Source: Psammoneis japonica (taxonomy: Eukaryota). Taken from it: a stretch of 64,000 nt of DNA. Location: the NCBI GenBank assembly GCA_008632985.1, contig QPGO01000171.1:1-64000 (forward strand). The letters are read 5' to 3'. A program made the position numbers and the translations under genes. The notes beneath the pieces were generated by a model. The model was given only the letters and a program-made list of their open reading frames with translations, did not search any database and had not been told where the DNA came from. Shown here in pieces: positions 13,601-38,280 of the stretch (the stretch's first letter is position 1; each line of letters starts with the position of its first letter).

Positions 13601-14048
13601 CAGTTAGTTGCTTGCTGCATCACCGCTTCTTCTTGGCAAAATGTTCTTGACGGTCGCAGACACCCTCCTTCAGCTGCCAGACGTGTTGATTTCTTGCGAT
13701 TGAAAACCAACAAACCAATCGGAGATCCTCTCCAACCCAAGTTGCTTCACCACACTCGCTTGTGTGCTTTCAACGCAAATGGATGCAAGTTCAACAAAAG
13801 AGGAGGGGACAATTAACACCTGTTGTCAAGTTGCTGCGGAAATGCAAGCTGACACATTGGGAATCTCTGAGGTTTGTTTGGACACTGCACAATGTGAGGT
13901 CCTGTCTACGTGCAGATCTACGGTCTCAAACTCCCCTTTACATGGTCGATCCACCTTTTCATGCAGCTCAACTCCTTTTGAAACACAGCACAAGCCAGGT
14001 TGACCCATGCAGAAATAGGGAACAAGCACTCACAACATCGTAGAGACA

Positions 14049-15083: not shown

Positions 15084-15866
15084 ACAACATCGTAGAGACA
15101 GATTTGGGTGTTGTGAAAATTGTGAGATTATTTCATTTAGAGTGCAAATGCACGATGGTGTTCTTTTCTAAGAAACAAGAATTCTTGTTACATGACAAGT
15201 CATTGGAAAGACTTAAGCACAAGTCTTTTGTGACACTTGTTGACACTCATGCGGAGCCAATTCGCAGGCTCATACTCGGTGCTGCATGCATCCTGCGCAG
15301 ACCCTTCACACAAGGTGAGTCACGTGCGTGATGGCCAGTCGCGCCGGTCTCAGTCGCATGGGTCACTCCTGTGGCCCATCGCAGGTCTCGTACTGCAGGA
15401 GTCGTGTTTTCTACAACACGCTTCTGCGGGATCAGTGTCGCTGTGGACAGCCTACAGACACAGGAAAGTGGCATCATCGGCGGCCACGGCAGGGATGCCT
15501 GCTGCACTCGCCCCTGTGACAAGGTCGCACGAGTGACAGAAGGGTCCCACTGCTGCTGAGGGACATTTTTTTGTTGTGTCCAACAGCACACACTACCTTC
15601 TCATTCACAAAGGGAGTCATTGTCATCACATTGACATTGTTTCAGTGGACATTTTGCCATGTGTGGCCTCCAGAACATGCACAGGTGAAAGCTGTGCTCA
15701 GGAGCATTAAGACATTTATCAAATTGTCCAAGCTACTGAGGTCACACAGGTCACTGCCATGTTGGCCGTCATTCTTGGAGACTCGTTGCTGCCACATCAT
15801 CGGTGTCAGAATCAGAGTCTTCAGAGAGGTGTGCATTGTCAAAGGTGTGAAGTTCACTGTCTGCCT

Positions 15867-16957
15867 TCACGTCATCACACGTGCCACACGTTTCAACGTA
15901 TTTTTTATGGCCCGTTCAATGATGACATTGATTTCTTCCTTACACATGCCAGCATTGCACTTGCGCGCATCCTTGCACTCAGATCTATGTGCATCCGTAG
16001 TCTTGAGTTTCTTGACCTGACGTTTCAGAGACCAACAATCATCAGCACTGTGGTTACATGCACCGTGAAGCATGCATGCGTGACCATGTTTTCTGTCTGA
16101 CGTCATCGAAACTCGCTCCTTTGCTGCCGATGTCAACTCGCTTGGTGTGTGACTCTCGGAACTTGATCGTTTACGCAGAATCGGATCGTCTGCTGACTTC
16201 ATCTTGGTGTCTTCAGGGTCGTCTTGACGTGAGGTAGAGGCCATGAGCTTGTCAGCAGCCTCAACTTCTTCCACACCCTCACAGAATGAGACAAATTCTG
16301 GAACAGTGTGTGCCAAAGGATTGAATCCTTGCAACTTCATTTGGTGCTGCCACAGCCATGGAATGCCACATTCCAACAAATCAACCAACTCGTCTTCCGA
16401 CAGCACTTGCGGAGCTTGTCCATTGTCTTCAACTGGTGGAAATTTTGGAATGTGCACATTGATTTCTACGGCACGAGCAACATGCTCACGAATTTTGACA
16501 TCTAAAGGCTTTTGCATGAAATGCCTTAAACAGCGCTTCTGTGTCAATGCAGCCCTTTCTGGGAAGACACTTTTAGCAACAGCAGCCATGCAACGTGCTA
16601 ACGACATCTCCGTTTCTGCATTTTCATTCGCTGCTGCATTGTTAAAGGCAGCAAGGGCATCGCCCTCTAATGGCCTTCTCACAAGCAAAATTTACCGGGT
16701 CTTGTTGTAATGTTCTGCCCAATGCACATGTGGTCACAGTCCTTTAAGAAAAGGAGCCATTCTTCAGGTGACTGCGCCGAGAAGCAGGCGACCGTAACTT
16801 CATACGTAGGACTGTCCGGGTCATTTGGGTTCGTGCGTAATTTATGCGTCTGACTTTTGTTCTCTTTCAGAACCCTGGGGACCGGACGTTGAAAGGCAAT
16901 TGGTGGAACGACCACCAGTGTCATGAATGCGCTAAGCACCGTTTGTCCAACCTTCAT
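15867..16957 (-). pseudogene. Gypsy-like gag with one frameshift
   Basis: PEEWLLFLKD...GQNIT...LEGDALAAF...QKRCLRHFMQKP...GIPWLWQ and a C-terminal CMLHGACNHSADDC (CxxHx4Hx4C) knuckle; lies between two LTRs. Confidence 0.75.
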
Positions 16958-19900
16958 TGTTAATTAAGCAAACTGTTCTTGTGCTTGCCGGGAGCAACAT
17001 TGCTGTGACCCATGCAGAAACAGGGAATAAGTGCTCATGACGTTGTAGAGATAGATTTGGGTGTTGTGAAAAATTATGAGATTATTTCATTTAGAGTGCA
17101 AACACGCGATGGTGTTCTTTTTCTAAGAAACAAGAATTCTTGTTACACAACAAGTCATTGGAAAGACTTAAGCACAAGTCTTTTGCAACACTTGTTGACA
17201 CTCATGTGGAGCCAATTCGTAGGCTCATGCTCGGTGCTGCGTACATCCTACGCAGACCCTTCATGCAAGGTGAGTCACGTGCGTGATGGCCAGTCGCGCC
17301 GGTCTCAGTCACATGGGTCACTCCTGCAGCCTGTCGCAGGTCTCATGCTGGGAGTTGTGTTTTCTACAACATGCTTCTGTGGGATCAGCGTCGCTATGGA
17401 CAGCCCACAGATGCAGGAAAGTGGCATCATTGGCAGCCACAGTGGGGATGCCTGCTGCAAGGTGGCACAGCCCTAATTTCTTGCAATTCCGTGTCGGCTC
17501 GTTTCTGCAGTCATGAATCCAATTCCCTGGGGCAATGGTCCATTCAAGTCTTCAATGGATGGAATGGCCGCCAAGTCATGTTTGTCTCTTGTTGCCGGGT
17601 GTGCACCAAAAACCAACGTACTCCAGGGAAAACTGCAATGCATGTGCAACAGCTCTGTCTACTTCATCAGCAAGGACAACAGTGTTTGGACCCAAGAAAA
17701 GCTTTCTGCACCAACCTGTTGTGAATTTTACAGGAGTTCTTGATTAACAAAGACAGACAAGCAATCATGTTTGGTGATTTCAACACAGACTTTGCCGTGG
17801 ATGCGGACTCTTTGTCATCATTGACTTAACGTTTCAACTTGTCTGACGTTCTGTTTAACCTTGCCGGAGCGATGGATTTTTCTACGTGTGCAAAAGGTTC
17901 CAAGAGGCTAGATTGCGCATCAGCCACACCTGGTGCCTCAGCGGCAGCTCGTTTTGGAGGATACAAGGCATTTGGTCACCGAGTGACTTCTGACCACCGT
18001 GCCCATTGTGTCGACTTTGACACTATTTCCTTGTTTGGCAACCCAACTGTTGACCTTCCCAAGGCAGCATTTCGTGACATCCAAACCTCTTCCAAGCCTC
18101 AGGTGACTTCCCACCTTGAATCGATCGGACTGATGCTTCTCAACCAAAATGTGCTTGAACGATCCAGACAACTCCTGCAGTTAGATGCACCAGGCCATTC
18201 CCTTGTGGAGCAATTGGGACAAGACATGATGCAGTTTGCACTGGAGGCCGCCAAACAATGCGGTAATTACCGCAAGCCGGATTGGTCAGTGGAATTGGCA
18301 GACCTACAGCATCGAGTGTACATTCTTACAAGAATGATGGCAATGATGCAGACAGGACTGGACTGTGTGTCTCAAGTTCGCAACATGTGTGACAAGTTGC
18401 AGGGGTCTTTCATCATTCCTGAGTCCTGCGAAGAGTGTCAGAAAGCATTGTGCCAAGCCCAAAACCAATGCAAACAGGCAGCTAAAGAGAGTGTCATCCA
18501 TCGTGAAAGGGAAACAGTGGAAAGGACAGCGAAGCTTGACTTGGAAGGCTCCAAGGAGTCCAAACGCAAAGCAAAGATTCTCCGCAACATTCGGAAAGCC
18601 CAGGAAGTTCAAAAACTGTTCAAGAAAATTCAATCTTGCAAGGGGCACTGAGATGTGGGCATTAGCAGCATGCAGGTGCCCCACAACCCAGCCAGAAATC
18701 CAAAAGAGTGTGAAGATTGGAGACCACAGATGCACCGGAAGAGGTTGCCAATGCCATTAGAGGTCGCAATCAGAAACATTTTGGTCAGGCTCATGGAACA
18801 CCTCCAACCGTTCCCCCTTTGTCAATCGATTTAGGACATGAAGGCAACACCATTGTGGCTGATCTTATTCTTGATGGCAACTGTGACACGTCGACCTTAA
18901 ATGACACTACAGCGGGACTTGTCCAGTTCTTACAGAGAAGATCACCAGTGGCAGTTTCAACGCTCTTGACCGAAGCCGATTTGGAAGGTAAATTCAAGAA
19001 TTGGAAGGAATCTACATCCACATCACTGCACTCAGGATTGCGCTTGGGCCATTGGAAAGTTGTGCATGCCCTGCATTCAAATTCTGCAGCAAAAGATTCT
19101 GATGGGAATCCTTCTGAGGACCAAGTCCACCTGAATGAGGTGCAACAGGCTCTGATTATCATCCGACTGAATTTGTTGAATCATGCCCTCAAATGGGGAC
19201 ACTCGTGTGATTGCTGGAAGGACATCATGAACGCAATGATTTTCAAAGAGCCCGGAAACAATAAAATCCATCGACTCCGAGTTGTTCACATGTGTGAAGC
19301 AGATTTTCAGTTGATGTCAAGTGTCAAATGGCATCAGTTGGCACAAAACATGGAGCATCGCCATCCCCACAATCCTGGCATCTATGGCACTTGTCCTTTC
19401 CTTAATGCCAACACTCTGGTCTACCTTGAAGAACTGATGCTCGAGACTAGCAGGGTGTCTCGGAAATCAGCGACACACAGCAATGGCCACAATGCCTGGT
19501 GCCATAACCGAAATGTTCCAGCGCTCACTGCCGTGCAAAGTTGGAGCAACGGCATGCCTGCTGCGGTCACCAAATTGGCCAATGCCACGTTACACAAAGC
19601 CCACTGCTGGCTCAAAACGGTCCTTGGCTTGTCCCTGACTTCTTACTCACACTCGAAGGCTTTCCCCATTTGTGGCACTGGACAAGGAAGTGGCAATTCC
19701 CCTTTTTACTGGAATCAGTTGTGCAACTGCCTGTTTTGTTTGTTTGATCAACAGGCACACCGAGCGCATTTCGAAACTCCCAACCAATCTTTGTCTCTGC
19801 GGATGTTTTAACATGGCTGTGTTGACGACACATCGACACAGGTCAACGATTTCTGTGCTTCTCTCCAACCTTCAGCCCTTGACTTGGCTTTGCAAATGCA

Positions 19901-22900
19901 GGAGGATAACCAACTTTGGTGTGACTTGTTAGATTCAGCGGGACACGAACTCGAACTCCCCAAGTGCTCATTCTGTGCTGTCGAATGGCTGTTTACGGAA
20001 GACGGTGAGCCACATCTGCACCCTTGTGATGAAGATGTGTCCATTGAGGTTTACTCCGCAGACCAATGGTTCAAATGGGACAGTTGTCAGCTCTCCGCCT
20101 GCTCTGCCCACAAGACATTTGGCCATCACAAAGCACCCGCCGGAACTCAGAAAACACAATTCCTCAAACTGAAGACCAAGAGCGACGACGAGTCAGTTTT
20201 TCTTTGGTCATGCCCTTTGGATCGAGATGACACTTGGACACACTATTTTGCTTGTTATCTGGCATCTGTGACCTGCGTTCTTCCTAACACTCACTTTTCT
20301 TCAAAGGAACTCTTGGAAATTCAAAGGAAAGCCATGCGGGTGCTGTTTGCAAAGTGTGGTTATAACCGCAACACTAAGTGTGATGCATTGTGTGGTCCTT
20401 GCTCTTTGGGAGGAGGTGGATTCCAATCCTTGGATGTTGAACAAGGAACTTTACAAGTCTTACAATTCTTGCTTCACTGGAGAGGCACAGGTCAACCCAG
20501 GACCTTGTCTCACATTGCTGTTGCCTGGGTCCAGTTTCAACTCAGCACTGGAGTCAGCTTTTGGAAGGACGTTCACACAAGACTTCCTCATTCGGAGTCG
20601 AAATGGTTTGTGTCACTACGCTCCTTTTTGGCTCGGGTTGATGGATGCATTGAGGTGGACAATGCCGGTGTTCTACCGTCACAATGCAAAGGGGACCGTT
20701 TTATGATGGGGACATCGTCCTTGAGTCTGGGATTTTCTCAGATGGGGAGATCCGGTTGATCAATTGTTGCCGACTGCACCTCCAAGTCCTCACGGTGTCC
20801 GACATTGCTTTCCTGGACAGCAGGTTTCTGGATGCTGCTAAAGTGAACAGCAATCCTTCCTTGTTGAGTAGCGTGTCTAAGTTGAACCCAGTCGAACAAG
20901 CCCTTCTGTCCACTCGTGCATGGACTCAATGGTGCAAGGTCTGCTCCTTGTTGTGTGAAGAAGGTAGTTTGGCGCTTACAACATCTCTGGGTGAATGGTT
21001 GGTGTCCGCAGACAACATGAGAATGACTTTCGCAGCACATTACAAGCCCTTTGAAGAATTCTTGTACATTCGGACCTCCGACCACTTTGAAGTTTTTCCA
21101 GTGACTGATCACATTGCTGATTTGGTCGAATTTCTTGAAAGTGTGCCAGATGTTTCCCCATTAGTGGCACCTGTCATGGTGGATGCCACAGACAATGGAA
21201 GATGGCATGTCATAGAGTGTGGGGCAGCTGTGTCCATCCCAGGGGCCGTGCCTGTTCCCAATGACTTCGAAGAAATGTTAGAGTCCCTTTCTCCATGGGA
21301 GGCAGCCTTGTTTGATGAACTTACCTTGCACGTGTCCATTTTCAAACTGGCAGATGTCATAAGATCTGGCCATGCTATGGCTGGGAGCGATGGGTCAGTG
21401 GCAGATTTTGATGCTTCCTTTGGATGGACTTTGACCATCGACGGAAACCCTTTGGTAGATTGTGCGGGTCCAGTGTTCGAAGTACGCCCCTCTTCTCATG
21501 GAGCTGAAGCATGGGGACTGTTGTCCATTCTCTGTTTTGTCCTTCGAGTTGTGGAATGTGTGCGGATGGGTTTTCCCTTGGGGATTGATTTGCATTGCGA
21601 CAATTCCTCTCTGGTTTGCAATGTTGCCTCCTTTCATCAGCCACCTCCACTGGATGATCAAGAAGCGTCTCCTGATCCGGCCAGCGACTACGCTCATCGA
21701 CATCATGTTGCGAATGCGCTGTCCCCCGATTGGGACGTCATGCATGAAATTGTGCATTCCTGTCAGCAGCTTTCAGAACACTCCTTTGACAATTCTGGTG
21801 GTGTCCAAGTGGCAGTGAAGTGGGTGAAGAGTTGTCAGGATGTTTCCATCCCGTATGAGCACTTGTCTTTGCCGGCACAATTAAACATTCGTGCGGACTA
21901 CCTGGCGGGACGGTGCCATGGCACGCACACAAAGACAATGGAGTTAGCACTGCGATTCCCACACTGTGCAGCTAATCTTGTGGTCAAGGATTTGTCGGTT
22001 CACACAAATGTCAAATCAGTGTCACGTTACGAAGCTTCAGTGCCCCGGCTCTCCGCGTTTATGTGATGGAGAAGCATGGATGGTCCGAAGATACATTTAA
22101 AACCATTGATTGGTGAGTCCACTCAAAGTTGATGTCCAGAAACATTCGCCGGCATGTCAGCACAGTGAAGCTGGTTCAGGACCTCTTGCCCATGAATGAG
22201 ATCGTCCACAGATGCAACCCCACTCAGCCGGATTGTTGCATTCACTGTCAGCATCCTATGGAGGATAGAGACCACATTCTCAGGTGCCCGCACAATGAAC
22301 AATGGCGCAGAACATTTCTCCAAGGTCTACGCAAGAGGTGTGACGATGTTTCTACCTCTCCATCATTGCAAGACATGCTTTTGGAGTGCCTAGAATCTTG
22401 GTTTCATGAAGAAATTGTTTATTCCGACCACGTTCATCACAGCGTACAATCGGTCTTTTATTCCCAAGAGAGGATGGGGTGGCATCAAATTTTCAATGGC
22501 TGATTCCCCAACAAACCCACTTGTCGATGAATGGTGCAACACAGGCAGATGCAGGTCGAAGATTGGACTGGGCAGCAACAGTGGGTTCGTACGTGTGGTC
22601 TGAATGGTGGGAGTTGTGGGATTTGCACAATGATGTGGTACACGGACATGATTCGGAAACCAGGCAGTCATCCCAACATCGCGACACCGAGTCAGAAGTC
22701 AAGGCTACACACTCCAGCATTGACGACTGTTTGGCAAAAGACAAGGTGCATCCATTCGATTCAGTTGAAGAACATCTGACACACACAACACACAGATTGA
22801 GAAACTGGTTGACTGTGGTTTGACCCATGTTCAAGTCCAGCGTTCACAAAGCAAAACGTCTCGCTGCAAGAGGCACTCGCACCATTGCCAGTTATTTCGG

Positions 22901-23062
22901 CTTGGCACCACCCAGCAGTGGTGCAAATGTTGGCCAGTTGTTACATGCCCCTGCCGCACTGCTGGTGCAATGGGGGGGTGGGCCAGCTTGATGCCGGAGT
23001 TGCAGGGTGGAAGTGCAGCAGCACCTTAAATGTGGATTTTAGGTTTTGTTCTGAATCAAGCC

Positions 23063-26000
23063 GCAGACAGTCCATTGCGCTCCGCTCTCAACATTGACAG
23101 AGCTGATTCACATCAGGACCTCTTTACTTTTACTCCGACGCAACTGGATGCCCTTGTTCACAACAATGGCACCAATCAAATGCCCTTGCCACATGGTTAC
23201 AAAGCACAGATGGCTGCACTAATTGGCCTGTACATGGCAAAAGCGCACGGCAGCGCCGATGTTGGCAACAACCCTCAATTGTTCACACACGAGGAGTTCA
23301 CCGACTGTCATCTTAGTCCTGAGTGTGTGGCATCCCTCTCCATGGGCACAGCACCATCTGCTCCCACTCCTGGCTCGTTGCCACCCAAACCACATGACCC
23401 CATGCGTGACTTTAAATGAGGTGTCAAACGTGACCCACTTGCCTTCGCGCTTCTCAAGTCTGACAAACAGTGGCACATGTGGCACACCTCCATCGTTGCA
23501 CAGGCCCGCTCCCAGGACGTTGACCGCGTTCTCCATCTGAAGCACAAGCCCTCTGCAGCTGAGGACAAGGCCCTGTTCGATGAACAACAGAAGTGCATGT
23601 TCGCCGTGTTTGAACATGTCTTGCAGAATGACAAAGGCAAGGCACTTGTTCATGAACATGGCGGCTCCTCTGATGCTCAAGTGGTGTGTTGTGACCTGTC
23701 CAAGCATGCCCTTGCTTCTGCTCACACATCCCTGGAGTCCTTGACCCTTCTCACGTACCTCACCACTGCTCGCCTCGGTGATGGCACCTGGAAAGGATCC
23801 ACTCATGCCTTCATACTTCACTGGCAGGACCAGCTTTGCAAGCATGAAGCTCTCATCCCGGGCAAGGACCATTTCTCTGCTGGCCAGAAACGTGTCATGC
23901 TTGAGAACGCTGTTCACCCTGTCGAAGAACTCTGTTCAGCAAAGAATCAGGCTGATCAGTTCCGCACACAGAATGGCAAGGGCCTTTCTTGTGAGCAGCA
24001 CTTTGGACTCCTGCTTTCTTCAGCGGCACAGTGCGACAGCACATTTGCCCCCAAGATGGCTCCTCGCACTCTGTGCCATGCCATCTATGAACATGACCTG
24101 GTCCCCGACGACCCTGACAATGATGCACTCTTTGATGTCGACAGTGATGTTGACGTCATCCAAGTTCATGCTGTGCAAACTCGTGGCAACTCCCTCACCA
24201 GGGAACAATGGTGTCGCATTCCACCGGACCATCAGCACATTTGGGACACCTTGCCCCAGTCCACCAAGGCCATCATTCTTGGCTCCCACACCGCCCACTC
24301 CGGCAACTGCCATGACTTGATGGTGGTCAACCTACACGACCTCCACATTGGCAGCAATGGCAATGTCAACTTGTCCGCCAATGCTCACGATCTTGCATCG
24401 GCCTCCGCACAATTCGACGCTGCAGCCGATGCAGCCAATGCTGACCTCATTCTGGCTCACCTCACCAGGTGCAAGCCTCTGCCACCCAGCAACTTGCAAC
24501 GTCTCCTGGCAACTGAATGGCCTCCTTCCACCCGTTCTGGAGAGAAACCGCCCAGATCTGCACCTTCCGTCCACTCTGACACAAAGCCCAATGACACTGA
24601 CATCGAGATCAACGGTCATAAATGCCATCATGTCAACAACCACAGTGTCGTCTGCTCTGCCTTGACCAACAAATCGACTTGCAAAGGCACCCTCGTGGAG
24701 TGTGGTGCAAACAGTGGTGTCGCCGGTGATGATGTTTGTGTGTCATTGCTTGCACTGGTTGCCATGTTGACATCCAAGGCATCGACGATCACCAACTGGT
24801 CGACATTCCCATTGTCACTGCCGGTGGTGTCATCCACACACAATGTGGCCCCATCATCGCCATTCTTCACCAGTGCGCCTGCACTGGAAAGGGCAAGACC
24901 ATACATTCTTGCGGTCATTTTGAGTGGTGCAAACACAACGTCAAGGATCGGTCCATCAAGGTCCCCAATGGTCTGCAGCGCATCACCACCATTGATGGAT
25001 GCGTCATCCCCATTGACATCAAAGGCAGCCTTCTGTACATTGCCACATGCCCACACACTGATGCCGAATGGGACACCTTGCCACACATCATCCTCACTGG
25101 TGATGACATGTGGGACCCATCTGTCCTTGACCACCAGTTCACCGATGATGAGACGTGGTGTGATGCCACATCTGACCTCCAGGCCGACCCGACTGCCAAC
25201 CTCTTTGACGCATTCGGTGACTGTCACCACCATCATGTCACAACAATGCCTTGCTTGTGGACTCCGTCCTTGATGACCACCTGCTCCCAACGTCCTGTTT
25301 CTTCTGTGAATGCCATGAGCACGCAATCAATCCAAAAGATCCCGACTTTGAGTCTCTGTGCCCTTGTTTTGGCTTTCTTCTGAAGGACACTGTCTGCTGC
25401 ACTTTTGATTGCACGACGGAACACGCTTGCATGCCCACCAGCACGCACTTGAAAAAGGCACACAAGTCGCCCAACCCGGCTCTCAACGTCCACCGACACA
25501 ACAAACCCGTTGCCACCAACATGGTGTGCTCTGACACCCCCGCGGTTGACTCCGGCTGCACCAGCGCCCAGCTCTTCATTGGCATGGAACCCCTTGTCAC
25601 GGACGTGTACAGAACCAAGACCGACAAGGAATTTGTCAACATGCTTGAGGACAACATTTGCAATCGTGGTGCCCCGTCCAAGCTCATCAGCGACCGTGCT
25701 CAAGTTGAGATCAGCAACAAAGTTCTTGGCATCCTTCGTGCCCTCTTCATCTCTAGTTGGCAAAGCGAGCCTCACCAACAGCATCAGAATTTTGCTGAAT
25801 GTTGCTGCCAAACTGTGAAGACCATGGCCAACACCATCATGGATGGCTTCGGGTCTCCGGCTTACACCTGGCCACTCGCCCTGATGTGCGTGTGCTTCAT
25901 GCTCAACCACACGGTGTCTGCCATGCTCCACTGGTGCACTCCCACCAAAGTGCTGTCTTTCTCTGCTCCCGACATCAGCCCGCTCCTCCATTTTCAATGG

Positions 26001-28480
26001 TGGGAACCCATGTGCTGTCACCTGGAAGATTCCAACTGGCCATCCGAATCCCGTGAATTACGTGGTCGCTTTGTTGGCATTGCCGAACACGTTTGCCACC
26101 AAATGACATTCAAGATTCTTTCTGACAACACTCAGAAGATTCTCTGCCGTTCCAACGTGCGTTCTGCCCATGATCCGTCTGCCCCAAACCTGCATCTTGA
26201 TCCTCCTGACAACAGATCTGCTGAACCCATCATTAAATCCTGCCACGACTCCAAGGATTTGCCAGATTCACCAGATGGGGAGGCAATCAGGATGCCCAAA
26301 ATGCCCGTCTTTGACCCCGAGGATATCATCGGACGTACCTTCCTCATGAAGCCACAAGAGGATGGACAATGCCACAGAGCCTGCATCGTCAAAGCCGTTG
26401 AGGACCACAACTGGAAAATCGGAGACAATCCTGGACTAGTCAAGTTCATTGGCTCCATTGACAATGATGAATGCGAGGAAGTCCCACCCTGCAATGACAT
26501 CATGCACCACATCAAGCAGGAAGACGAGGACACCACCCTCTGGAAGTTCCGACGCATCGTGTCACACAAAGGACCATTGCGACCCTATGATCCCTCTTGG
26601 AAAGGCTCAAGCTACAACGTCATGCTTGAATGGGAGAATGGGGAGGTCACATCCGAACCCCTTGCCATCATTGCCAAGGATGATCCCGTCACCTGTGCCA
26701 TCTACACACGTGAGCATGGCCTCCTTGAAACCGAAGGATGGAGGCATTTTCACAAGATAGCCCTGCGTCAGAAGAAGCCATTCCACATGGCCAACCAAGC
26801 CAAGTTACGCTCCTTTCGCACTGCACCATGACACAAGCACGGACATGAAGTGCCATGGGACCACAAGCATGCCTTGGCCCTCGATGAGTGCAATGGCAAC
26901 CACAAGCGGGGAGACGCAACAGACCTCGAGATGACTCAGCTTGATGAGTACAAGGTCTTCCATGACTGCGGACATTACAAAGATTCCAGCACCCCATCGG
27001 GATGCAAGAAGGTCTGGGTGCATCTTGTCTGTGATCTCAAACATGAGGGACGACACAAAGCAAGGCTTGTTGCCGATGGACACCTCACAGACGTGCCCGT
27101 TGACAGTGTCTGTTCTGGAGTAGCGTTTCTTCACGGCCTGCAAATGATGATCTTCCTGCCGCAGCCAAACTCAACGAACTAGAGACTTGGGCCACTGACA
27201 TTGGGAATGCCTGTCTCGAAGCTACGACCAAGGAGAAACTGTACATTTTGCAGCAGGCCCCGAGTTTGGCAAGCTGGAAGGACACATCCTTGTCATCCAC
27301 AAGGCCTTGTGTGGACTCCGCAGCTCTGGCCTCAGATGGCATGAATGCTTTGCCAATTGCTTGCGTGCCGAAGGCTTCTTCCTGTGCAAAGCCGAACCCG
27401 ACATCTGGCTGCGCAGGAATGGTGACCACTATGAATGCGTGGCAGTGCATGTGGATGACCTGGCCTTCACCATGAAGGACCCCCAGGCTTTTGCAGACAC
27501 CCTCATGGAGAAATGCAAGTTCAAGCTCAAAGGCACTGGACCATTGGAGTTCCATCTTGGTTGCGATTTCACCCGCGATCCAGATGGCACCCTGTGACTT
27601 GCTCCCTGCAAGTAAATTGAGCACATGGTTGACAAATGCGCGCGCCTTTTTGGGGAGAAGCCCCGCTCTGATGTGCTTTCACCCCTTGACAAGGGAGACC
27701 ACCCTGAGCTTGACACTTCTGAATTACTCGAACCTGATGGCATCCACCAATTTCAATCCTTAATTGGTTCCCTGCAACAGGCTGTATCCCTTGGACACAT
27801 TGACATTACTGTGGTTGTCATGTCTCTGTCTAGCTTCCGTGCAGCGCCCTGCCAGGGCCACCTAGACCGTGCCAAACCTGTCTGCGGATTTCTCTCCAAG
27901 ATGCGTCATGGTGCCCTCTGAATGTGCACCGAGGAGCCCGACTGTTCAGACCTTCCTAAGCCCGTGTATGACTGGGCCCAGTCTGTGTGTGGGGAAGTAG
28001 AAGAGCTGCTCCTGCAAGATGCACCTGAGCCACTTGGCAAGTTCGTCACCACAACACACTGTGTCGATGCGAACTTGTTCCATTGCATGCTCACTGGACG
28101 CTCTGTCACCGGCATCCTCCATTTCCTCAACAAGTTTCCGGCTGATTGGTTCTCTAAGAAACAAGCTGCAGTCAAGACTGCCATGTATGGATCCGAGTTC
28201 ATTGCTGCAAGGACGTGCGTTGAGCAGATTATTGACCTGCGCATCACTTTGGGTTACCTTGGCATCCCCATTTGTGAAACATGTTACATGTTCGGGGACA
28301 ACAAGTCGGTTGTGGATAGTGCCACCATCCCGCACTCCAAGTTACACAAGCAACACACACCCCTCTCATTCCATCGTGTACGTGAGGCAATTGCCTCCGG
28401 TTTTCTTGAGTTTCATTTCATTGAAGGGTCCCGCAACCCGGCTGACATCCTCAGCAAGAATTGGGGTTACTCCCAAGTCT
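23063..28480 (+). pseudogene. Copia gag-pol (frameshifted, with nonsense codons)
   Basis: gag FK*GVKRD; protease LVECGANSGVAG; integrase VCSDTPA / ISDRAQ / SEPHQQHQN; chromodomain-like SSYNVMLEWENGEVTSEPL; RT HKARLVADGH, VHVDDL; RNase H VDAN, YGSEF, FGDN, ADILSK. Confidence 0.9.
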
Positions 28481-28583
28481 GGAATCTCCTTCATCCTCTA
28501 ATGTTTTGGAACTTCGATCCCAAGGCTTTCAACCAATCCAACTTCGAATCTATGGCTGTTGACCCCTCAAGCATGCTGGGGAG

Positions 28584-28828
28584 TGACAGGATTTGAACAA
28601 GATTTTAGTTTATCACACATGATTATGTGTGCTCTTAGTTCTGCATGCGTCGCGCGATGTAGTTTGCTTTCGAGCCACACGGCTCACAAGAATAGCAACA
28701 GCAGCACCGACATCATGACACCAGTGTTTCGGCTCCTGTGACGGTCTCTGCACAGAGACTCATCTGCCATTTAGACAGCAGTAAGGAGTCATTGTTTTCT
28801 TCCACCCAGTCATCTTCAATTTCTGTCA
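28584..28828 (+). repeat. 3' LTR of the Copia element
   Basis: Direct repeat of 10365-10613, preceded by a PPT. Confidence 0.92.
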
Positions 28829-31330: not shown

Positions 31331-31445
31331 CAAAAAAACCAATTTTAAGTGACATCACGCCTTTGCCCAGCAACACCAGTGCTGGCTAACCTGCACTTCC
31401 GGCACACCCTGCTGGGGGTGTGGCAGAAGCTCATGCAATTGACCG
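31331..31445 (-). mobile_element. Third copy of the T-tailed retroposon/LINE 3' terminus
   Basis: AAAAAAACCAATTTTAAGTGACATCACGCCTTTGCCCAGCAACACCAGTGCTGGCTAACC closely matches 14058-14117. Confidence 0.75.
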
Positions 31446-31463
31446 GATGTGTTTTTTTTCTTC

Positions 31464-32112
31464 TGCTCTTCCAGCCTGTGCAGTGACATGTGCTGAAGAC
31501 AGGTTGTGAGAGCACATTTTGTGTCTTCAGTCCCAAAACATCATGTGTTTGCCATCAGTTTGCAGCAGTCTTGTCCCCCCACTCCAGCGGACCGTAACAC
31601 ATTTTAACTGGTGCACAGAAGATTTCTACATGATTTCTGTGCATGTCACACAAATCACGCACCCCTGCCCGTCTTCCAGCCCATGTGGCAACACATGTTG
31701 AAAACAGGTTGTGAGAGCACAATTTGTCTCTTCAGTCCCAAAAAATCATGTGTTTGCCATCAGAGTTTGCAGCAGTCTTGTTTCTCACTCCTGCCACAAA
31801 CCATGCAGTGGTTTGCTGCAAGAAATCATGCATGCATTTGATTGCTGCCCCAGCCATCACAAGTGGTTTGTGGAATGCCAAAAATGACCTGACTCATTGG
31901 CCCTTGTTGCTCTTCTAGCCGGTGCAGTGACTGGTGCTGAAGACAGGTTGTGAGAGCACATTTTGTGTCTTCAGTCCCAAAACATCATGTGTTTGCCATC
32001 AGTTTGCAGCAGTCTTGTCCCCCCACTCCCGCAGACCGCAACACATTTTAACTGGTGCAAAGAAGATTTCTACGCAATTTCTGTGTATGTCATGCAAATC
32101 ACATGGCCCTGC
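31464..32112 (+). repeat. Three imperfect ~210-240-bp tandem units (A-B-A pattern)
   Basis: ACAGGTTGTGAGAGCACA..TTGT.TCTTCAGTCCCAAAA.ATCATGTGTTTGCCATCAG recurs at ~31499, 31705 and 31943. Confidence 0.85.
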
Positions 32113-32549
32113 CAGTACAAAATGTCTGCTCTCCACCCCAATGTGATGTCTGACGATGATTTCATTCTAAATTTGGGAAACTTGGTGTGAGGAGTTGACA
32201 CAGCACTTGTGGGGGCCCAGGACTCAAGTCAAAAGCTTGTCAAAAGGAGGTCCGTAAGATGACAGAACAAACAAATGGCCAAGCCCAGTGTTGAAGAATT
32301 ATGACAAAACTGTGAAAAGACAACAGCTTGATTCTGATGTGACAGTGACCAGATGCAAAAAATCAACACTGCTCATCGAATGGAGTGTGCTGTGTGACGA
32401 AACCCTGGCCAGTCACACGCTGCTTTGCACCTCCGACAAGAGCAGTGTGTGACATGGAGTTTGCCTTGGTTTGGAGGCAGGCCACCATGCACACTGTCAG
32501 AATTGCAGGCACGTTTGAAAAATCCACCGCAGCAGCAGTGGCAAGAAAG

Positions 32550-35500
32550 TAAATGGCAAAAATCCAAACAATGTCCCAATTGGCAAAGTTCCCGGGAAAG
32601 GTTTTGATCCACTGCACCTTGACTGAGCTCAGCCTCATGCTGACAGATTTGGCTCATTCCAACATCCCAGACTTTCCCACCTGCACATGTTCCTTAAAAA
32701 CAACTGATCTGTCAGTTAAAGCAGGACATTTTGTTGGGTTTGGTTTTGGTTTGACCAGATTATAACCGGTGGTTCCATGTCAAGACTGACTGGAGTAAAC
32801 ACGCGGTCGGGGCAGCCTTGCTCCAAGTTGACCCTGATGATCATTTGGCCAAGGAAGCTGAGTTTGCCAAAATGCAGGGCGGTCCATGCTTTTTCGATTT
32901 GCAGCAGTCAGGCATTCATTTGAGGCTGATTGTCTTTTTATCACGTGCCACCACCGCATTGGAAAAATCACACCACTCCCACACAGGTGAAATGTCAGTC
33001 AGCCGCTGGGCATTCCCCAAGTGGAAGAAGTTCTTGTTTGGCCAAGAGTTCACATGGCTGGCTGATTGTAATGGCATCCGCGAGTTCTTTGAGCGTGATG
33101 ATGTCCCAACTCATTTCCTTCAATGGCGGCGCATGGAATTGCTGCTGTTCACGTTCACAGCAGAGCATGGCCTAGAGGACATGATGACAGAATGTAACAT
33201 GTTGTCTCGGTGCAACACAGCCACCTCCAAATGGTGAAACAAATTGCAATCAACAGTCTTGTTAGCACTGCCTGGTTCTACAAGAGCTCACGACTCAACA
33301 AAGACTTGTGCCTTACCTTCTCTGCCTCTAATGGAAAGAGCAGGTCCAGCTCCTTCTGCATTTGCTTCACCTGTGGCACAAGCAGTGCCTGGAACTTGGT
33401 CTGTTGTGCACATCGGTTCTTGTGCAGCTCTGATTTCGGAAGCCTTTGTGGCGGCATTCTTAGATCCATCAAGTCCCATTGTGATTGACCCAGAAGTGTC
33501 TTCAAAAGCACACCCAGAGTTGAATCTGACCAATCAAGACCAGTTCTTTGACAGCATCCTGCATTCAGCTTCTGCAATCCAAGCCATTGATTGGTTTGTT
33601 GCAGTTTTTCCCATCAAGCACAAGGCACCAACATTGCAGACAGTGGACACTGATGTGTCAGTGTGGTGCAAGAAAATGTTGTCTTTTGCCAAGATTCTTT
33701 TTTCTCATGCCCATCTCTCCACAGCCATTTACTTTGTCCCAGCTTCTTCATTCAATCTGTACAAGCACATTTCACAGCTGGTCAAATGTCTGTCAGATTG
33801 GGCATTGCAACCTGCAATGGTTGCGAGTGCTGCTCACGGCAGAGCCATCATGACAGAGCATCATTCATTTGTGATTCTTGTGACTGTGTCAGCACACCTG
33901 CCTTTCAGCTGTTGCCAGTTTCGGCCAACGGTCCTGCTGCCATGAATTCATTCTTAGATCCAAGCCCCCCTGCTCACCTGCATCTAGACCTGCAAGAGTT
34001 CCAAGCATGCACACCTTCTCCAGCAGTGCATTCTCTTTCAGAAGACACTTTTTCTGCCAAGATTGGTCGTCTTCTCAAGTCTCAAGTTTCCTCTGAGGCA
34101 TTTGATGGTTGGCCAGCATTTCTAGCACTGGTCCCACACCATTTGTTTTACACCCTGGAGAAGAACAAGATGAGTTGAATGCATCATTTGCCACATGGAT
34201 TGAAGCTGCGGATGTGTGTTGCCCACTGCACATGTGTGAAGTGTTTGCTTTTTGCTCGGAATCGACCCGAACCACATGAGACTCCTCTGCTCCATCTCGA
34301 AGAAAGCACAATGACCCAACAGTTGCATGCTGTCCCAGGACCAGACGCTCTTTGGCACATCTTTGAGTCCCCAGCTCTGGCAGAGTGTCCATCACACCTC
34401 CCGAATGATGAACCAAGTCGACCCAAGATGGCAACAGCAACTGTTCTCCCTCCGCTCAAGCATTTCAAGCAATTCCTGTGTCTCTGGTGGGGGTCCCATT
34501 GATCATTTTTCCACTCTTCCTCTACCCACCAATCAAGAATGGAAGAATGCAATCCAAGCGGACCCAGATTTGCTGTTTTAGCAACACAAGCGCTTCACGA
34601 CAATGTGGTTCCGGCCAACATGTCTTCATCAAAAAGACGCACCATGGCATTCTACAGAACAACCAGTTGCAACTTGACTTGGGCATTCTGCATTGCTTTG
34701 AAAAATGCAAGACACTCTACTTTCATCAATTAAGAGTCAGGGTAGTTCCATTCAAGCTTTGCCAAACAATGCATTCTCTTTCAGAAGACACTTTTTCTGC
34801 AAAGATTGGTCGTCTTCTCAAGTCTCAAGTTTCCTCTGAGGCATTTGATGGTTGGCCAGCATTTCTAGCACTGGTCCCACACCATTTGTTTTGCACCCTG
34901 GAGAAGAACAAGAAGAGTTGAATGCATCATTTGCCACATGGATTGAAGCTGCGGATGTGTGTTGCCCACTGCACATGTGTGAAGTGTTTGCTTTTTGCTC
35001 GGAATTGACCCGAACCACATGAGACTCCTCTGCTCCATCTTGAAGAAAGCACAATGACCCAACAGTTGCATGCTGTCCCAGGAGCAGACGCTCTTTGGCA
35101 CATCTTTGAGTCCCCAGCTCTGGCAGAGTGTCCATCACACCTCCCGAATGATGAACCAAGTCAACCCAAGATGGCAACAGCAACTGTTCTCCCTCCGCTC
35201 AAGCATTTCAAGCAATTCCTGTGTCTCTGGTGGGGGTCCCATTGATCATTTTTCCACTCTTCCTCTACCCACCAATCAAGAATGGAAGAATGCAATCCAA
35301 GCGGACCCAGATTTGCTGTTTTAGCAACACAAGCGCTTCACGACAATGTGGTTCCGGCCAACATGTCTTCATCAAAAAGACGCACCATGGCATTCTACAG
35401 AACAACCAGTTGCAACTTGACTTGGGCATTCTGCATTGCTTTGAAAAATGCAAGACACTCTACTTTCATCAATTGAGAGTCAGGGTAGTTCCATTCAAGC

Positions 35501-37320
35501 TTTGCCAAACAATGATCGTGGTGTGCCACTCATCTCCCTTTGCAGGACACAGTGGCATGTGGCCAGGTTGTGCTCATTGCATCTTAGCCAACAGTGCTTC
35601 CCACGAAGCACAAATGTGCAACTCACCTCTCTTGGCTGGGATGAACCATTCTTGGTTATTTTTCTGGACATTTGATCACCCGGGGACCTCCCAGACAAAG
35701 AAGGAAACACCAAGATGCTTGCTTGTCTCAACTGCATAACCTCTTTTGCAATGGCAGACTTTTTGTCTTCCACAGGTGTCATGAGTGAGTTCTTCATTGT
35801 TTGCAGGCTGCCAAGATTGATCATTGTTGATGCAGACTTGTTTGCTGGCATGTTCAAATGACTGTTTGAACTGCTGCAAGTGCCTGTGACACCCGTGTCA
35901 TGCAAGAATCGCCGTGCAGTGCACAACGAGCATTTTCATCATCATCTCAACAAAATCAAGAGAATCAACTTGACAGACATAAGCTCAGCACTCTTTTTGC
36001 CATGTGCGCATGAAGTGCATCTCCTGTTGACACTGCTGACATTCCAAGGTTGCCAGTGGCTGTTGGATGCCAGTTTCCTTTCCCTTTGGACATCAAAGCT
36101 CAACTGATTCATGACTCGGCATCAGCTCCGCAGCATGCTCTAGAACATTTCCAGTCCACCACTCCATCACTCTTCAAGCAACGCAAGCTGTTGATTGCAT
36201 TAAATGATGAGCAACAAAAGAGACACATCGAGGTAAAAAATGAAGGTCGATCTTGCCGCATGTTCAATCCCGGTGATGTCGTGGTTGTACGGAAGCAAGT
36301 CAAGTCCAACAGATCAAGAGGCATTTCAGCCAAGTTATTGTTTTGCACCAAGGGCCCATGCAGGGTTTTGGAAAAGGTTTCCCCTTCATCATGTGAGTTC
36401 CAAAAGTTGCCTTTCATCCAAGGACTGGGTCCTCCTGGTCAGTTTCACAAAGAAAATGTCACACAAATGATGCTGTCACCTTCGACAATGATTTTTCATA
36501 AAACAGCTGACTGCACTGACACTTGTTTTTTGCATTTCCATTCCGAGATGGCCGTTTCTCCTCTAGAAAAGTGGCTTGGTGCTGTCCCTTGAGGCAGTTG
36601 TAAAAAGCCCGAAATGGCAGAAGACTTTGCATTTTGAGCCCCTGCAAAGCATGTTGTCCGATGAGCCCCCAGTTGAGACCGTTTCTTCCGACTCTGATTC
36701 TCAAGGCCAAGCACAAGACTTGGAGACTGTTGATGACCCTGACAGTGATTCTGATGAGGAGGGAGCAACTGGCACTGCCACACTTCTCTTCCTGATTTAG
36801 TCCCAAGAACCGTGCTGCACAAGTCTGTCTCTGATTCGACCTCTGAGATGTTTTTGTTGCATGTCACCCTCAAGTGCAGATGGCTCCGGTTCTCAGCATC
36901 ACACAAGTTGATTGGCCTGAATCCAACCATTGTCATGCCACTGCTCAAGGCATCCATCACATTTGTTGGTGGGTCCAACAGCATGCCAATTGGAATGTGC
37001 GGTCTCTTGTCAACAGCAGGTTCTGGCCAGATGTTTGTGAGCTCCGTGCCCACAACCAAGAACCAGAACAGTTCCCTGTCAGGCCTCAGAAGGCAGACAA
37101 GGTCATTGTGATGAACGATGCCGTAGCATGGCCGTCCACTCCTTTTCCTTTGGCAGAACATTTTTTGGCAGGCCCATTTGATTTATGCAAGGTTCGCGTT
37201 AGACTTCACGGTCCCGAGCACCAAGCAGTCTCTGAAGCCTGTCACATTGACAATGTTTTCTGGATTGGGCTTGAAGCTGAAGCTCCAAAGTTCCAGTTGG
37301 GTGCATCTCATGTTTGACAT
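32550..37320 (+). pseudogene. Degenerate Ty3/Gypsy pol: RT end, RNase H, extra ~450-codon domain, integrase, C-terminal domain
   Basis: RNase H KTDWS...GEMSVSRWAFPKWKKFLFGQEFTWLADC...CNMLSR; integrase HSSPFAGH, CAHC, FLDI, IVDAD, NEHFH; GPY/F-like KGPCRV. Downstream purine run GGAAAGGAGGA then TGTAAC at 37806 is a probable 3' LTR start. Confidence 0.85.
34027..35512 (+). repeat. Recent 743-bp tandem duplication (34027-34769 / 34770-35512)
   Basis: Near-identical copies (8 differences counted by eye) with TG microhomology at the junction. Confidence 0.95.
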
Positions 37321-37821
37321 GCTCCGGATTTGTCACTGGATCAGCAAATTTATTTAATGCACATTCATTTTCCTTTCAGTCTCATGTTTCTTGATCACCC
37401 TAAATTCAAGCTCTGACAGCCGGAGTTGTCACCTGATGTGACGAGTTTGGCCCGTCTTGGCCTGCTTTGAAGTCCAGTGCTCTTGTGCATTGGTTTGATT
37501 CTGCCACTGCCGGAGAGTCTAGATTGATTGGTTTACAAAGACTCAGTGCTGTCAGTGCATTGAAGCGTGGATGTGTCCAACGTGAGTTGTGTGGCGAGTG
37601 GGATGTCCTTTGAATGTGTGGATCTCCAAGCCCCACATGCTGCAGACTCCTGAGGTGTCAGTTGTGGCTTTGCTGGTTGTGATGGGGGTGGAGAGACCAT
37701 GGGACAGGATGACACTAGATTCAAGTTTTTTGATCCTGTCAAGACCATGGGAGGACACGGCCTGTCCACCAACTTTTGCGGAAGCCTGTTCTTTGGAAAG
37801 GAGGATGTAACAACAGCATCT

Positions 37822-38280
37822 TGCAGTGGGCATCCCTGCCGTGGCCGCCGATGATGCCACTTTCCTGCGTCTGTAGGCTGTCCGTAGCGACGCTGATCCC
37901 GCAGAAGCGTGTTGCAGAAATCACGACTCCTTTTACGAGACCTACGATAGGCTACAGGAGTGACCCATACGACTGAGACCGGCGCGACTGGCCATCGCGT
38001 ACGTGACTCACCTCGTCTGAAGGGTCTGCGTAGGATGTACGCAGTGCCGAGTATGAGCCTACGAATTGGCTCCGCATGAGTGTCAATAAGTGTTACAAAA
38101 GACTTATGCTTAAGTCTTTCCAATGACTTACCATATAACAAGAATTCTTGTTTCTTGGAAAAAGACACCATCGCGTATTTGTACTCTAACTATAATAATC
38201 TCATAATTTTTACACACACAGAAAATCTCCATCTTACGGTTTAAGTGCTTATTCCCTAGGGCCTATTTCTGCATAGGTCA
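37822..38280 (+). mobile_element. Solo LTR of the family at 14001-17459 (opposite orientation), only lightly mutated
   Basis: TGCA...GGTCA, reverse complement of 17006-17459; 4-bp TSD ATCT (37818-37821, 38281-38284). Confidence 0.92.

What the first reader, a model, noticed from the sequence alone, without database searches (positions are those of the whole stretch)
15084..38280. Three LTR paralogues polarise the mutation: the same TpA becomes TG in one copy and CA in another
Compare the solo LTR C (37822-38280, reverse complement) with A (15084-15505) and B (17006-17459). C TTGTAACA is A TTGTGACA and B TTGCAACA. C CCTGTAGCCTATCGTAGG is A CCTGTGGCCCATCGCAGG and B CCTGCAGCCTGTCGCAGG. C GAGTACAAATACG is B GAGTGCAAACACG. 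A and B are the two LTRs of one insertion and were identical at integration, so these changes arose independently in chromosomal DNA afterwards, on both strands. That argues against RT error or editing of the retro-RNA, which would be shared by both LTRs and strand-biased.
Basis: seen in the sequence. Interest (0 to 1): 0.8.

Follow-up and report, generated by a model that had tools for sequence, protein, structure and literature searches.

The report
TA-erasing mutation polarised by LTR copies
Two ends of one jumping gene, identical when it inserted, now differ only where TA or CG has turned into TG or CA, and a third, untouched copy shows that TA and CG were the starting states, so this alga rewrites TA in its silent repeat DNA after insertion.

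Summary
A (14001-14048 + 15101-15505) and B (17006-17459) are the LTRs of one insertion with a 4-bp target duplication, AGGT. They differ at 45 of 451 aligned columns. All 45 are transitions inside CG/TA/TG/CA dinucleotides, and 0 of 211 other columns differ.

Solo LTR C (37822-38280, own duplication ATCT) is compositionally unmutated: TA o/e 1.06 and CG 1.08, against flanks at TA 0.10-0.19. Used as outgroup, C sides with TA at 10 of 10 and with CG at 13 of 13 single-copy A/B changes. At four sites A and B carry TG and CA where C has TA.

The refuting scenario, in which C gained TA by double deamination of CG, fails. C never lacks a CG that A or B keeps. Family contigs never show C and G in the majority together at a TA site. 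Conserved Tyr in a Copia RT has become Cys or His.

This is post-integration TpA-to-TpG/CpA hypermutation on both strands, alongside CpG decay. The scan has noted this process repeatedly elsewhere in this genome. The only description in print that I found is a 2026 preprint on Bigelowiella natans. The enzyme is unknown.

The parts
13997..14000 (.). Left target-site duplication AGGT of the A/B element
   Evidence: Read directly; identical to 17460-17463.
14001..14048 (-). LTR A, first 48 bases, cut off from the rest by a nested insertion
   Evidence: Matches the starts of B and C.
14049..15083 (.). Nested 1035-bp insertion inside LTR A, flanked by a 17-bp direct duplication (14032-14048 and 15084-15100). 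It is not TA- or CG-depleted.
   Evidence: TA o/e 0.68 and CG 1.02, computed on 14048-15083. Its 333-aa ORF has no Pfam or Atlas match.
15084..15505 (-).
   Evidence: LTR A as a whole has 11 TA and 22 CG.
15506..17005 (-). Internal region of the element, with a gag-like ORF on the minus strand (about 16957-15879, in two frames)
   Evidence: Homologue P0122 at 34% identity, E 3e-47 pairwise. TA o/e 0.30, CG 0.66.
17006..17459 (-). LTR B
   Evidence: 14 TA and 15 CG.
17460..17463 (.). Right target-site duplication AGGT
37822..38280 (+). Solo LTR C, compositionally unmutated, flanked by the 4-bp duplication ATCT (37818-37821 and 38281-38284)
   Evidence: TA o/e 1.06, CG 1.08, with 33 TA and 28 CG. 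Its flanks have TA 0.19 and 0.10 and CG 0.39 and 0.36.
10365..10613 (+). Copia LTR D1, probably the 5' LTR of an outer element that contains the A/B element
   Evidence: Flank TGTCA against TGTCC after D2 (4 of 5 match).
28584..28828 (+). Copia LTR D2, probably the 3' LTR of the outer element
   Evidence: Outer element TA o/e 0.23, CG 0.54.
44482..44736 (-). Copia LTR D3, the 5' LTR of another copy
59499..60938 (-). Copia reverse-transcriptase ORF used as a protein-level polarity test
   Evidence: Pfam RVT_2, E 7.8e-21. Of 10 conserved Tyr columns, 5 are Cys and 2 are His.
49764..53217 (+). Importin-11-like host gene, used as the unmutated control
   Evidence: Pfam hits. Region 49000-53300 has TA o/e 0.62 and CG 0.89. 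Silent-site TA is retained.

Best explanation
Shown here. The three sequences are copies of one LTR family. A and B are the two LTRs of a single gag-only LTR element. C is a young solo LTR that still carries the family's unmutated sequence. After A and B integrated as identical copies, the chromosomal DNA was hit by two dinucleotide-specific transition processes. One turns TpA into TpG or CpA (A:T to G:C). The other turns CpG into TpG or CpA. Nothing else changed. Because TA and CG are self-complementary, a hit on either strand gives TG or CA, so the same ancestral dinucleotide can read TG in one LTR and CA in the other. Depletion increases with the nesting order of insertions, so damage accumulates in place over time. 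A neighbouring host gene is spared.

Inferred, not shown. The CpG part is deamination of 5-methylcytosine in methylated transposon DNA. The TpA part is enzymatic: most likely deamination of adenine preceded by T to hypoxanthine in DNA of silenced repeats, as proposed for Bigelowiella natans. I put that chemistry at about 0.4 to 0.5. Alternatives are a modified thymine at TpA that mispairs with G, or faulty repair at TpA.
For: - One insertion: TG...CA termini, a perfect 4-bp duplication AGGT, and a gag-like ORF between the LTRs.
- A against B: 45 of 451 aligned columns differ. All 45 are transitions and all 45 lie in YpR-family sites. 0 of 211 other columns differ.
- Polarity: C sides with TA at 10 of 10 and with CG at 13 of 13 single-copy A/B changes.
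- C has normal composition (TA o/e 1.06, CG 1.08) inside flanks at TA 0.10-0.19. C never lacks a CG that A or B has (0 cases).
- Both strands are hit. At C=TA sites A has 11 TG and 11 CA, and B has 7 TG and 13 CA.
- Family contigs of run X1: 400 were laid on C. Of the 40 listed variant rows, 20 are TA in C to TG/CA and 5 are CG to TG/CA. Only 4 run the other way, with shares of 5-16%.
- Protein-level outgroup in a Copia RT: of 41 departures from conserved residues, 18 are single TA-to-TG/CA changes and 7 are CG-to-TG/CA. Conserved Tyr has become Cys 5 times and His twice in 10 columns, while 5 control homologues keep Tyr in 10-11 of 11 columns.
- The sink state is TG/CA. The whole window has TA o/e 0.25, CG 0.48 and TG/CA 1.60, and the most decayed kilobases have TA 0.04-0.06.
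- Age gradient: outer Copia TA 0.23, then the nested A/B element 0.35, then the insertion nested in A 0.68.
- The host importin-like ORFs keep silent cross-codon TA (21 observed of 46 expected, and 20 of 28). The Copia ORFs keep 6 of 30 and 4 of 34.
- The same signature was seen arising de novo in chromosomal DNA of B. natans (preprint 10.64898/2026.01.13.699255, abstract and sections 7 and 12 read).
Against: - Of 16 C=TA sites hit in both LTRs, 12 have the same outcome and 4 the opposite. Independent hits with free strand choice would give about 8:8. Some shared changes may therefore predate integration, or sites may have a strand preference.
- The family test is incomplete. Phase between neighbouring positions is not given, 49 of 89 variant places were not shown, and only 1 of the 4 focal sites had both positions listed. 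Run X1 may be the sample the window was assembled from, so it is not independent.
- The Copia LTR triple (D1, D2, D3) is too decayed to polarise. It shows 3 sites where one copy has TA and the other two share TG or CA.
- No enzyme, no methylation data and no whole genome were available. Targeting to repeats, as opposed to exclusion from expressed genes, is not resolved.
Confidence: 0.85

Rival explanations
1. The ancestral state at the TG/CA polymorphic sites was CG. A and B each lost one strand by cytosine deamination, and C reached TA by double deamination. This is a C-to-T-only, RIP-like process with TA as the end state.
For: CpG decay is real here: 13 polarised CG-to-TG/CA changes, and one site with A=CA, B=TG, C=CG. 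Unphased contig shares at TA sites are arithmetically compatible with some CG copies.
Against: - C keeps every CG that A or B keeps and has the most CG of the three (28 against 22 and 15). The copy supposed to be most deaminated is in fact the least.
- C has normal dinucleotide composition.
- At 4 of 4 TA sites with both positions listed, C and G are never both in the majority, and their shares sum to 0.56-0.88.
- The window's decayed DNA ends up TA-poor (o/e 0.04-0.25), not TA-rich.
- Conserved Tyr codons have become Cys or His codons.
Confidence: 0.02
2. The changes were made before integration, by reverse-transcriptase errors or by editing of the retro-RNA or cDNA (ADAR- or APOBEC-like).
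For: Twelve TA-type and 3 CG-type changes are shared by A and B against C and could have been inherited from an already altered source copy. Editing of LTR retroelements before integration is known in vertebrates (PMC4866542; search listing and start of abstract only).
Against: - The 45 columns that differ between the LTRs of one insertion cannot be pre-integration changes.
- Both TG and CA outcomes occur in each LTR, so there is no single-strand bias.
- Non-retroelement DNA around C is depleted too.
- Depletion increases with nesting age.
Confidence: 0.03
3. There is no targeting. TpA-to-TpG/CpA is simply this genome's general mutational bias, visible wherever selection is absent, and genes keep TA by purifying selection.
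For: Depletion scales with apparent age. Young insertions (C and the 1035-bp insert) are untouched even inside depleted DNA. That fits a clock acting everywhere.
Against: - The rate at TA in the LTR pair is very high relative to background: about half or more of the TA sites were hit per copy, against 0 of 211 other columns.
- Yet the old host importin-like gene keeps silent cross-codon TA at 0.45-0.71 of expectation, and its 4.3-kb region has TA o/e 0.62. Selection on silent sites could not hold TA against such a rate.
- TA loss and CG loss are uncoupled between regions.
Confidence: 0.1

Closest known systems
TpA hypermutation of integrated giant-virus and virophage DNA in Bigelowiella natans (Mettrop et al., bioRxiv 10.64898/2026.01.13.699255; abstract, sections 7 and 12 and term passages read)
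   Same: Almost exclusively A-to-G and T-to-C changes, all at TpA, giving TpG or CpA depending on the strand. It happens in chromosomal DNA after integration. It is confined to foreign or mobile DNA. TpA-poor, CpA+TpG-rich tracts are the long-term footprint.
   Different: - Different lineage: a diatom-like stramenopile here against a chlorarachniophyte.
- The targets here are LTR retrotransposons and the surrounding repeat DNA, not viral integrants.
- Here it runs together with strong CpG decay. The preprint's text holds no 'CpG' and no 'diatom'.
- Here the evidence is comparative (LTR pair plus outgroup), not a mutation-accumulation experiment.
Repeat-induced point mutation (RIP) of Neurospora and other ascomycetes (details recalled; mentioned in passages of PMC9998398)
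   Same: Dense, dinucleotide-specific transitions on both strands of repeated DNA in the chromosome, leaving genes intact. The two copies of a repeat are mutated independently.
   Different: The chemistry and direction are opposite. RIP is C:G to T:A, mainly CpA to TpA, and it creates TA. Here TA is destroyed (A:T to G:C). Dependence on duplication, on meiosis or on a RID/DNMT4-type enzyme could not be tested.
CpG decay of methylated transposons (5-methylcytosine deamination). Diatom transposons are CpG-methylated via DNMT5a (PMC9998398, abstract and passages).
   Same: The CG-to-TG/CA half of the differences: 13 of 13 polarised with CG ancestral.
   Different: It cannot produce the A-to-G and T-to-C changes at TpA. 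In this LTR pair those are more frequent per site: 20-22 of 30 TA sites lost, against 8-13 of 28 CG sites.
Pre-integration editing of retroelements by APOBEC or ADAR (PMC4866542; search listing and start of abstract only; the rest recalled)
   Same: Clustered, context-specific transitions in LTR retroelements.
   Different: Those edits are made on one strand before integration, so they are strand-biased and shared by both LTRs. Here the two LTRs differ and both strands are hit.

Membership tests
TpA-to-TpG/CpA hypermutation (B. natans type) | Changes are A:T-to-G:C transitions confined to TpA | tested here: met
   Apart from CpG sites, every A/B difference is at a TA/TG/CA site, and 0 of 211 other columns differ. 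Polarity is TA ancestral, 10:0.
TpA-to-TpG/CpA hypermutation (B. natans type) | Both outcomes occur (TpG and CpA), meaning both strands are hit | tested here: met
   At C=TA sites A has TG 11 and CA 11, and B has TG 7 and CA 13. Four sites are TG in one LTR and CA in the other.
TpA-to-TpG/CpA hypermutation (B. natans type) | Acts on DNA already integrated in the chromosome | tested here: met
   The differences lie between the two LTRs of one insertion with a matching 4-bp duplication.
TpA-to-TpG/CpA hypermutation (B. natans type) | Confined to foreign or mobile DNA, with host genes spared | tested here: met
   In this window only: the importin-like region has TA o/e 0.62 and retains silent TA, against 0.04-0.35 in repeats.
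TpA-to-TpG/CpA hypermutation (B. natans type) | Observed de novo and episodically in mutation-accumulation lines at about 1000 times the background rate | not testable with these tools
   No lines or strain data were available. There is only an indirect rate contrast: about half or more of TA sites hit, against 0 of 211 other columns.
Fungal RIP | C:G-to-T:A transitions, mainly CpA to TpA, so TA increases | tested here: not met
   The direction is the reverse: TA is lost, and TG/CA is the end state.
Fungal RIP | Triggered by sequence duplication, premeiotic, dependent on RID/DNMT4 | not testable with these tools
   No genome is held. The unmutated copy C belongs to a high-copy family (400 contigs laid), which does not fit an immediate duplication trigger, but age could explain it.
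CpG methylation decay | CG ancestral, TG/CA derived, on both strands | tested here: met
   13:0 polarity. At C=CG sites A has 3 TG and 5 CA, and B has 8 TG and 5 CA.
CpG methylation decay | The DNA concerned is cytosine-methylated | not testable with these tools
   No methylome was available. Diatom transposon methylation is known from PMC9998398 (abstract and passages).
Pre-integration retroelement editing (APOBEC/ADAR) or RT error | Changes are shared by both LTRs and biased to one strand | tested here: not met
   45 columns differ between the LTRs, and both outcomes occur in each LTR.
LTR retrotransposon (copies A/B and solo LTR C) | Direct terminal repeats with TG...CA ends, a short target duplication, and an internal gag | tested here: met
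   TG...CA ends, AGGT/AGGT and ATCT/ATCT duplications, and a gag-like ORF with homologue P0122. No pol is present, so the element is gag-only or a deletion derivative. Its superfamily was not determined.

The most novel reading that the evidence does not exclude
This diatom-like alga has a dedicated genome-defence mutator. The proposal is a DNA adenine deaminase with a 5'-T preference, directed to silenced repeat chromatin. It keeps rewriting TpA to TpG/CpA in place on both strands and acts faster than CpG decay. It is a 'reverse RIP' shared with the distant alga Bigelowiella, and so possibly old or recurrent among eukaryotes. LTR pairs such as this one would give a genome-wide clock and a per-site assay for it.
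Probability: 0.45. Interest if true: 0.85.

Novelty: new member of a known kind. Interest (0 to 1): 0.68.

Why it matters
This LTR pair with an intact outgroup is a clean natural experiment. It shows three things: the direction of the change (TA to TG/CA), its timing (after integration, in chromosomal DNA) and its symmetry (both strands).

That excludes both the trivial CpG-only reading and the reverse-transcription or RNA-editing reading.

It extends a signature known from one 2026 preprint on a chlorarachniophyte to retrotransposons of a diatom-like genome. There it erases TA faster than methylated CpG decays.

If an enzyme drives it, this is a eukaryotic DNA-editing defence with A-to-G chemistry. 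That would matter for genome evolution and transposon dating, because LTR-divergence clocks would be badly wrong here. It could also point to natural DNA adenine editors.

Tried and rejected
- Whole genome: none is held for this window, so no all-copy alignment and no search for deaminase genes was possible.
- Dinoflagellate idea (modified thymine, spliced-leader relics): a recalled spliced-leader motif gave 0 matches with up to 3 mismatches. I dropped the idea. The only taxon hint from my own calls is a named Copia RT relative from the diatom Fragilaria crotonensis.
- Metagenome scan for an invariant 23-base LTR word: 0 loci.
- Sequencing runs: one holder, X1, plus two runs of the same sample. 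No RNA holder was listed, so nothing can be said about expression or RNA editing.
- Read laying gave no phase and hid 49 of 89 variant places, so only 1 of the 4 focal sites could be checked at both positions.
The patterns are mixed and cannot be polarised.
- Tyr test on the gag-like ORF of the A/B element: only two homologues. 1 of 3 aligned Tyr positions is His, which is too weak to count.
- Pfam on 18 long ORFs: only the importin-like gene and one RVT_2 hit.
- Atlas search on the nested insert's ORF: no usable hit.
- Strand-biased tracts: TG against CA is near-symmetric per 2 kb, except 8-10 kb and 54-56 kb.
- Literature searches found no description of this signature in diatoms.
- One line, a rough join of two ORFs in different frames, is meaningless and was ignored.


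Full report
**What is there**

The window is eukaryotic repeat-rich DNA with a striking dinucleotide bias. Observed/expected values are TA 0.25, CG 0.48 and CA and TG 1.60. The bias is regional. Three islands have near-normal values (4-6 kb, 14-15 kb and 47-53 kb; TA 0.46-0.86, CG 0.69-1.06). The rest falls to TA 0.04-0.3. One island holds an importin-11-like host gene at 49764-53217. No whole genome is held for this window. The label 'diatom' comes from earlier notes of this scan. My only own support for it is that a named relative of the window's Copia RT comes from the diatom Fragilaria crotonensis.

**Checking the observation**

Pairwise identities are A-B 90.2%, A-C 89.0% and B-C 87.3%.

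One correction is needed. LTR A is split. Its first 48 bases lie at 14001-14048. A 1035-bp insertion follows (14049-15083), flanked by a 17-bp direct duplication at 14032-14048 and 15084-15100. The LTR then continues at 15101-15505.

**Are A and B one insertion?**

Yes, on the evidence available.
- The LTRs begin with TG and end with CA.
- The element 14001-17459 is flanked by a perfect 4-bp duplication, AGGT at 13997-14000 and 17460-17463.
- C, at 37822-38280, has its own 4-bp duplication, ATCT on the plus strand, as expected of a solo LTR of the same family.
- Between A and B lies a gag-like ORF on the minus strand. Its homologue P0122 (399 aa) aligns over residues 20-367 to 16957-15879 in two frames.

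The element is therefore a gag-only or deleted LTR element whose sense strand is the window's minus strand.

**A against B**

Over the full LTRs, 451 columns align and 45 differ.
- All 45 are transitions.
- All 45 lie in dinucleotide sites where both copies carry one of CG, TA, TG or CA. There are 35 such sites: 10 CA|TG, 14 CG|TG-or-CA, and 11 TA|TG-or-CA.
- 0 of the 211 remaining columns differ.

Placing 45 differences at random among 451 columns, 240 of which are YpR-family columns, would put all of them there with probability about 0.53^45.

So the whole post-integration divergence of this pair comes from two context-specific processes. Background substitution is below detection.

**Polarity**

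C serves as outgroup and is also compositionally intact. It has TA o/e 1.06, CG 1.08 and TG/CA 1.04, with 33 TA and 28 CG. A has 11 TA and 22 CG, and B has 14 TA and 15 CG. C's immediate flanks are heavily decayed (TA 0.19 and 0.10, CG 0.39 and 0.36).

Results from the three-way alignment:
- Where only one of A or B differs and C agrees with the other, C has TA in 10 of 10 TA-type cases (binomial p 0.002).
- In the same test C has CG in 13 of 13 CG-type cases (p 0.0002).
- No site shows the reverse.
- A and B carry opposite outcomes (TG against CA) at 8 sites where C is in the family. C has TA at 4 of them, CG at 1, and TG or CA at 3.
- At the 30 alignable sites where C has TA, A keeps 8 (TG 11, CA 11) and B keeps 10 (TG 7, CA 13).
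- At the 28 sites where C has CG, A keeps 20 and B keeps 15.

The scenario was that the family carries CG at these sites and C reached TA by double deamination. Five lines of evidence go against it.

1. C never lacks a CG that A or B retains (0 cases). It has the most CG of the three, so it is the least deaminated copy, not the most.

2. Contigs of the one public run that holds this stretch were laid on C at 80% likeness or more. Four hundred contigs laid, 48 of them at least 99% alike, so the family is abundant. Of the 40 variant rows shown (49 further places were not shown), 20 are TA in C reading TG or CA elsewhere and 5 are CG reading TG or CA. Only 4 run the other way (3 to CG, 1 to TA), with shares of 5-16%. 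At the 4 TA sites where both positions are listed, the C-share and G-share sum to 0.88, 0.56, 0.78 and 0.79. They are never both above 0.5, so the depth-weighted consensus is not CG. One of these (37948/9) is a focal site. For two other focal sites only one position was listed (shares 0.56 and 0.54), and for the fourth neither was. The run may be the window's own sample, and the shares are unphased, so this test is supportive rather than final.

3. A protein-level outgroup in another element agrees. The Copia RT ORF at 59499-60938 (minus strand) was aligned with 60 homologues. It departs from residues conserved at 70% or more at 41 of 256 columns. Of these, 18 are explained by one TA-to-TG (13) or TA-to-CA (5) change, 7 by one CG-to-TG/CA change, and 16 by neither. 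Of 10 conserved Tyr columns, 5 are Cys, 2 His, 1 Trp and 2 Tyr. Five control homologues keep Tyr in 10-11 of 11 columns.

4. The end state of decayed DNA in the window is TG/CA with TA near zero. That is the opposite of what a C-to-T-only process would leave.

5. At least one A-to-G or T-to-C change is required in any scenario other than a CG ancestor, because TG and CA differ at both positions.

**Timing and place**

The A/B element lies inside what is probably an older Copia. Its LTRs are at 10365-10613 and 28584-28828, with flanks TGTCA and TGTCC matching at 4 of 5. The A/B element in turn carries the 1035-bp insertion. TA o/e follows the nesting order: 0.23, then 0.35, then 0.68. CG follows the same order: 0.54, 0.66, 1.02. 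This fits damage that accumulates in place with residence time.

The process is not uniform across the genome. The importin-like ORFs keep silent cross-codon TA (21 observed against 46 expected, and 20 against 28). Two Copia ORFs keep 6 of 30 and 4 of 34.

TA loss and CG loss are separable. At 24-26 kb and 60-63 kb, TA is 0.07-0.12 while CG is 0.52-0.68. At 1-3 kb both are below 0.2. Two processes are therefore more likely than one.

**What is not settled**

- Of 16 C=TA sites hit in both LTRs, 12 have the same outcome and 4 the opposite. Free strand choice predicts about 8:8. Perhaps 8 shared changes were inherited from an already partly mutated source copy, or some sites prefer one strand.
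- Whether the process is aimed at repeats or merely kept out of expressed genes cannot be told from one window.
- The chemistry is inferred. Adenine deamination in a 5'-TA context is the simplest single event that explains both outcomes on a self-complementary dinucleotide, and it is what the B. natans preprint proposes. Nothing here tests it.
- A rough context count suggests ATAT is erased most and TTAA least. It rests on only 6.5 kb of 'normal' DNA.

**Comparison with what is known**

The same signature was seen arising in mutation-accumulation lines of Bigelowiella natans at integrated viral DNA: only A-to-G and T-to-C, only at TpA, giving TpG or CpA by strand. TpA-poor coding sequences there are enriched for transposon domains (preprint 10.64898/2026.01.13.699255; abstract, sections 7 and 12 and term passages read). 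Its text mentions neither diatoms nor CpG.

Four full-text searches found no description in diatoms. Diatom transposons are known to be CpG-methylated (PMC9998398, abstract and passages), which accounts for the CpG half.

Fungal RIP is the closest concept, but its chemistry and direction are opposite.

Earlier notes of this scan report the same process on many other pieces of this genome. I reached the TA-loss reading before seeing them. They gave me the pointer to the preprint.

**Verdict**

I class the phenomenon as a new member of a kind described once, in a preprint. This locus is a particularly clean polarity proof.

Noticed in passing
window 14032-15100: A 1035-bp insertion (14049-15083) sits inside LTR A, flanked by a perfect 17-bp direct duplication. 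It opens with a run of nine A on the plus strand. It is not TA- or CG-depleted (TA o/e 0.68, CG 1.02). A 110-bp part (14056-14166) resembles 31332-31439 at 79%. Its 333-aa minus-strand ORF has no Pfam or Atlas match. The kind of element is unknown, and the position of the A-run does not fit an ordinary poly-A retroposition in either orientation.
   Followed up: partly
window 10365-28828: Probable 18.5-kb nested structure: Copia LTRs at 10365-10613 and 28584-28828 (flanks TGTCA and TGTCC) enclose the A/B element and more. A weak RT match lies at 27241-28407 (about 20-25% identity). TA depletion follows the nesting order.
   Followed up: partly
whole window (47.6 kb depleted against 6.5 kb normal): Surviving TA is context-dependent. 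Relative to normal DNA, ATAT (0.03), GTAT (0.05) and ATAC (0.06) are most erased. TTAA (0.57) and TTAG (0.80) are least erased. The normal sample is small, and some reverse-complement pairs disagree.
   Followed up: partly
window 24001-26000, 45001-46000, 60001-63000 against 1-3000: TA loss and CG loss are uncoupled. Some tracts have TA o/e 0.07-0.12 with CG still 0.52-0.68. Others have lost both (TA 0.04-0.06, CG 0.04-0.18).
   Followed up: no
window 15879-16957 (-) and 42622-43014 (+): A gag-like protein family without any Pfam domain (homologue P0122, 399 aa, with a Cys/His-rich stretch). A second, weaker copy lies at 42.6-43.0 kb.
   Followed up: partly
window 34024-35514: A tandem duplication of 748 bp, 98.8% identical, inside already depleted DNA. 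Its 9 differences are 2 TA-type, 3 CG-type, 1 other transition and 3 transversions.
   Followed up: no
window 47534-47628 and 49433-49527: A 95-bp inverted repeat (95.8% identical; the 4 differences are all transversions) brackets the region upstream of the importin-like gene, inside the unmutated island.
   Followed up: no
window 49764-53217: The importin-11/Cse1-like host gene is read as two long ORFs in different frames that overlap at 51760-51803. This means either a short intron or a frameshift.
   Followed up: no
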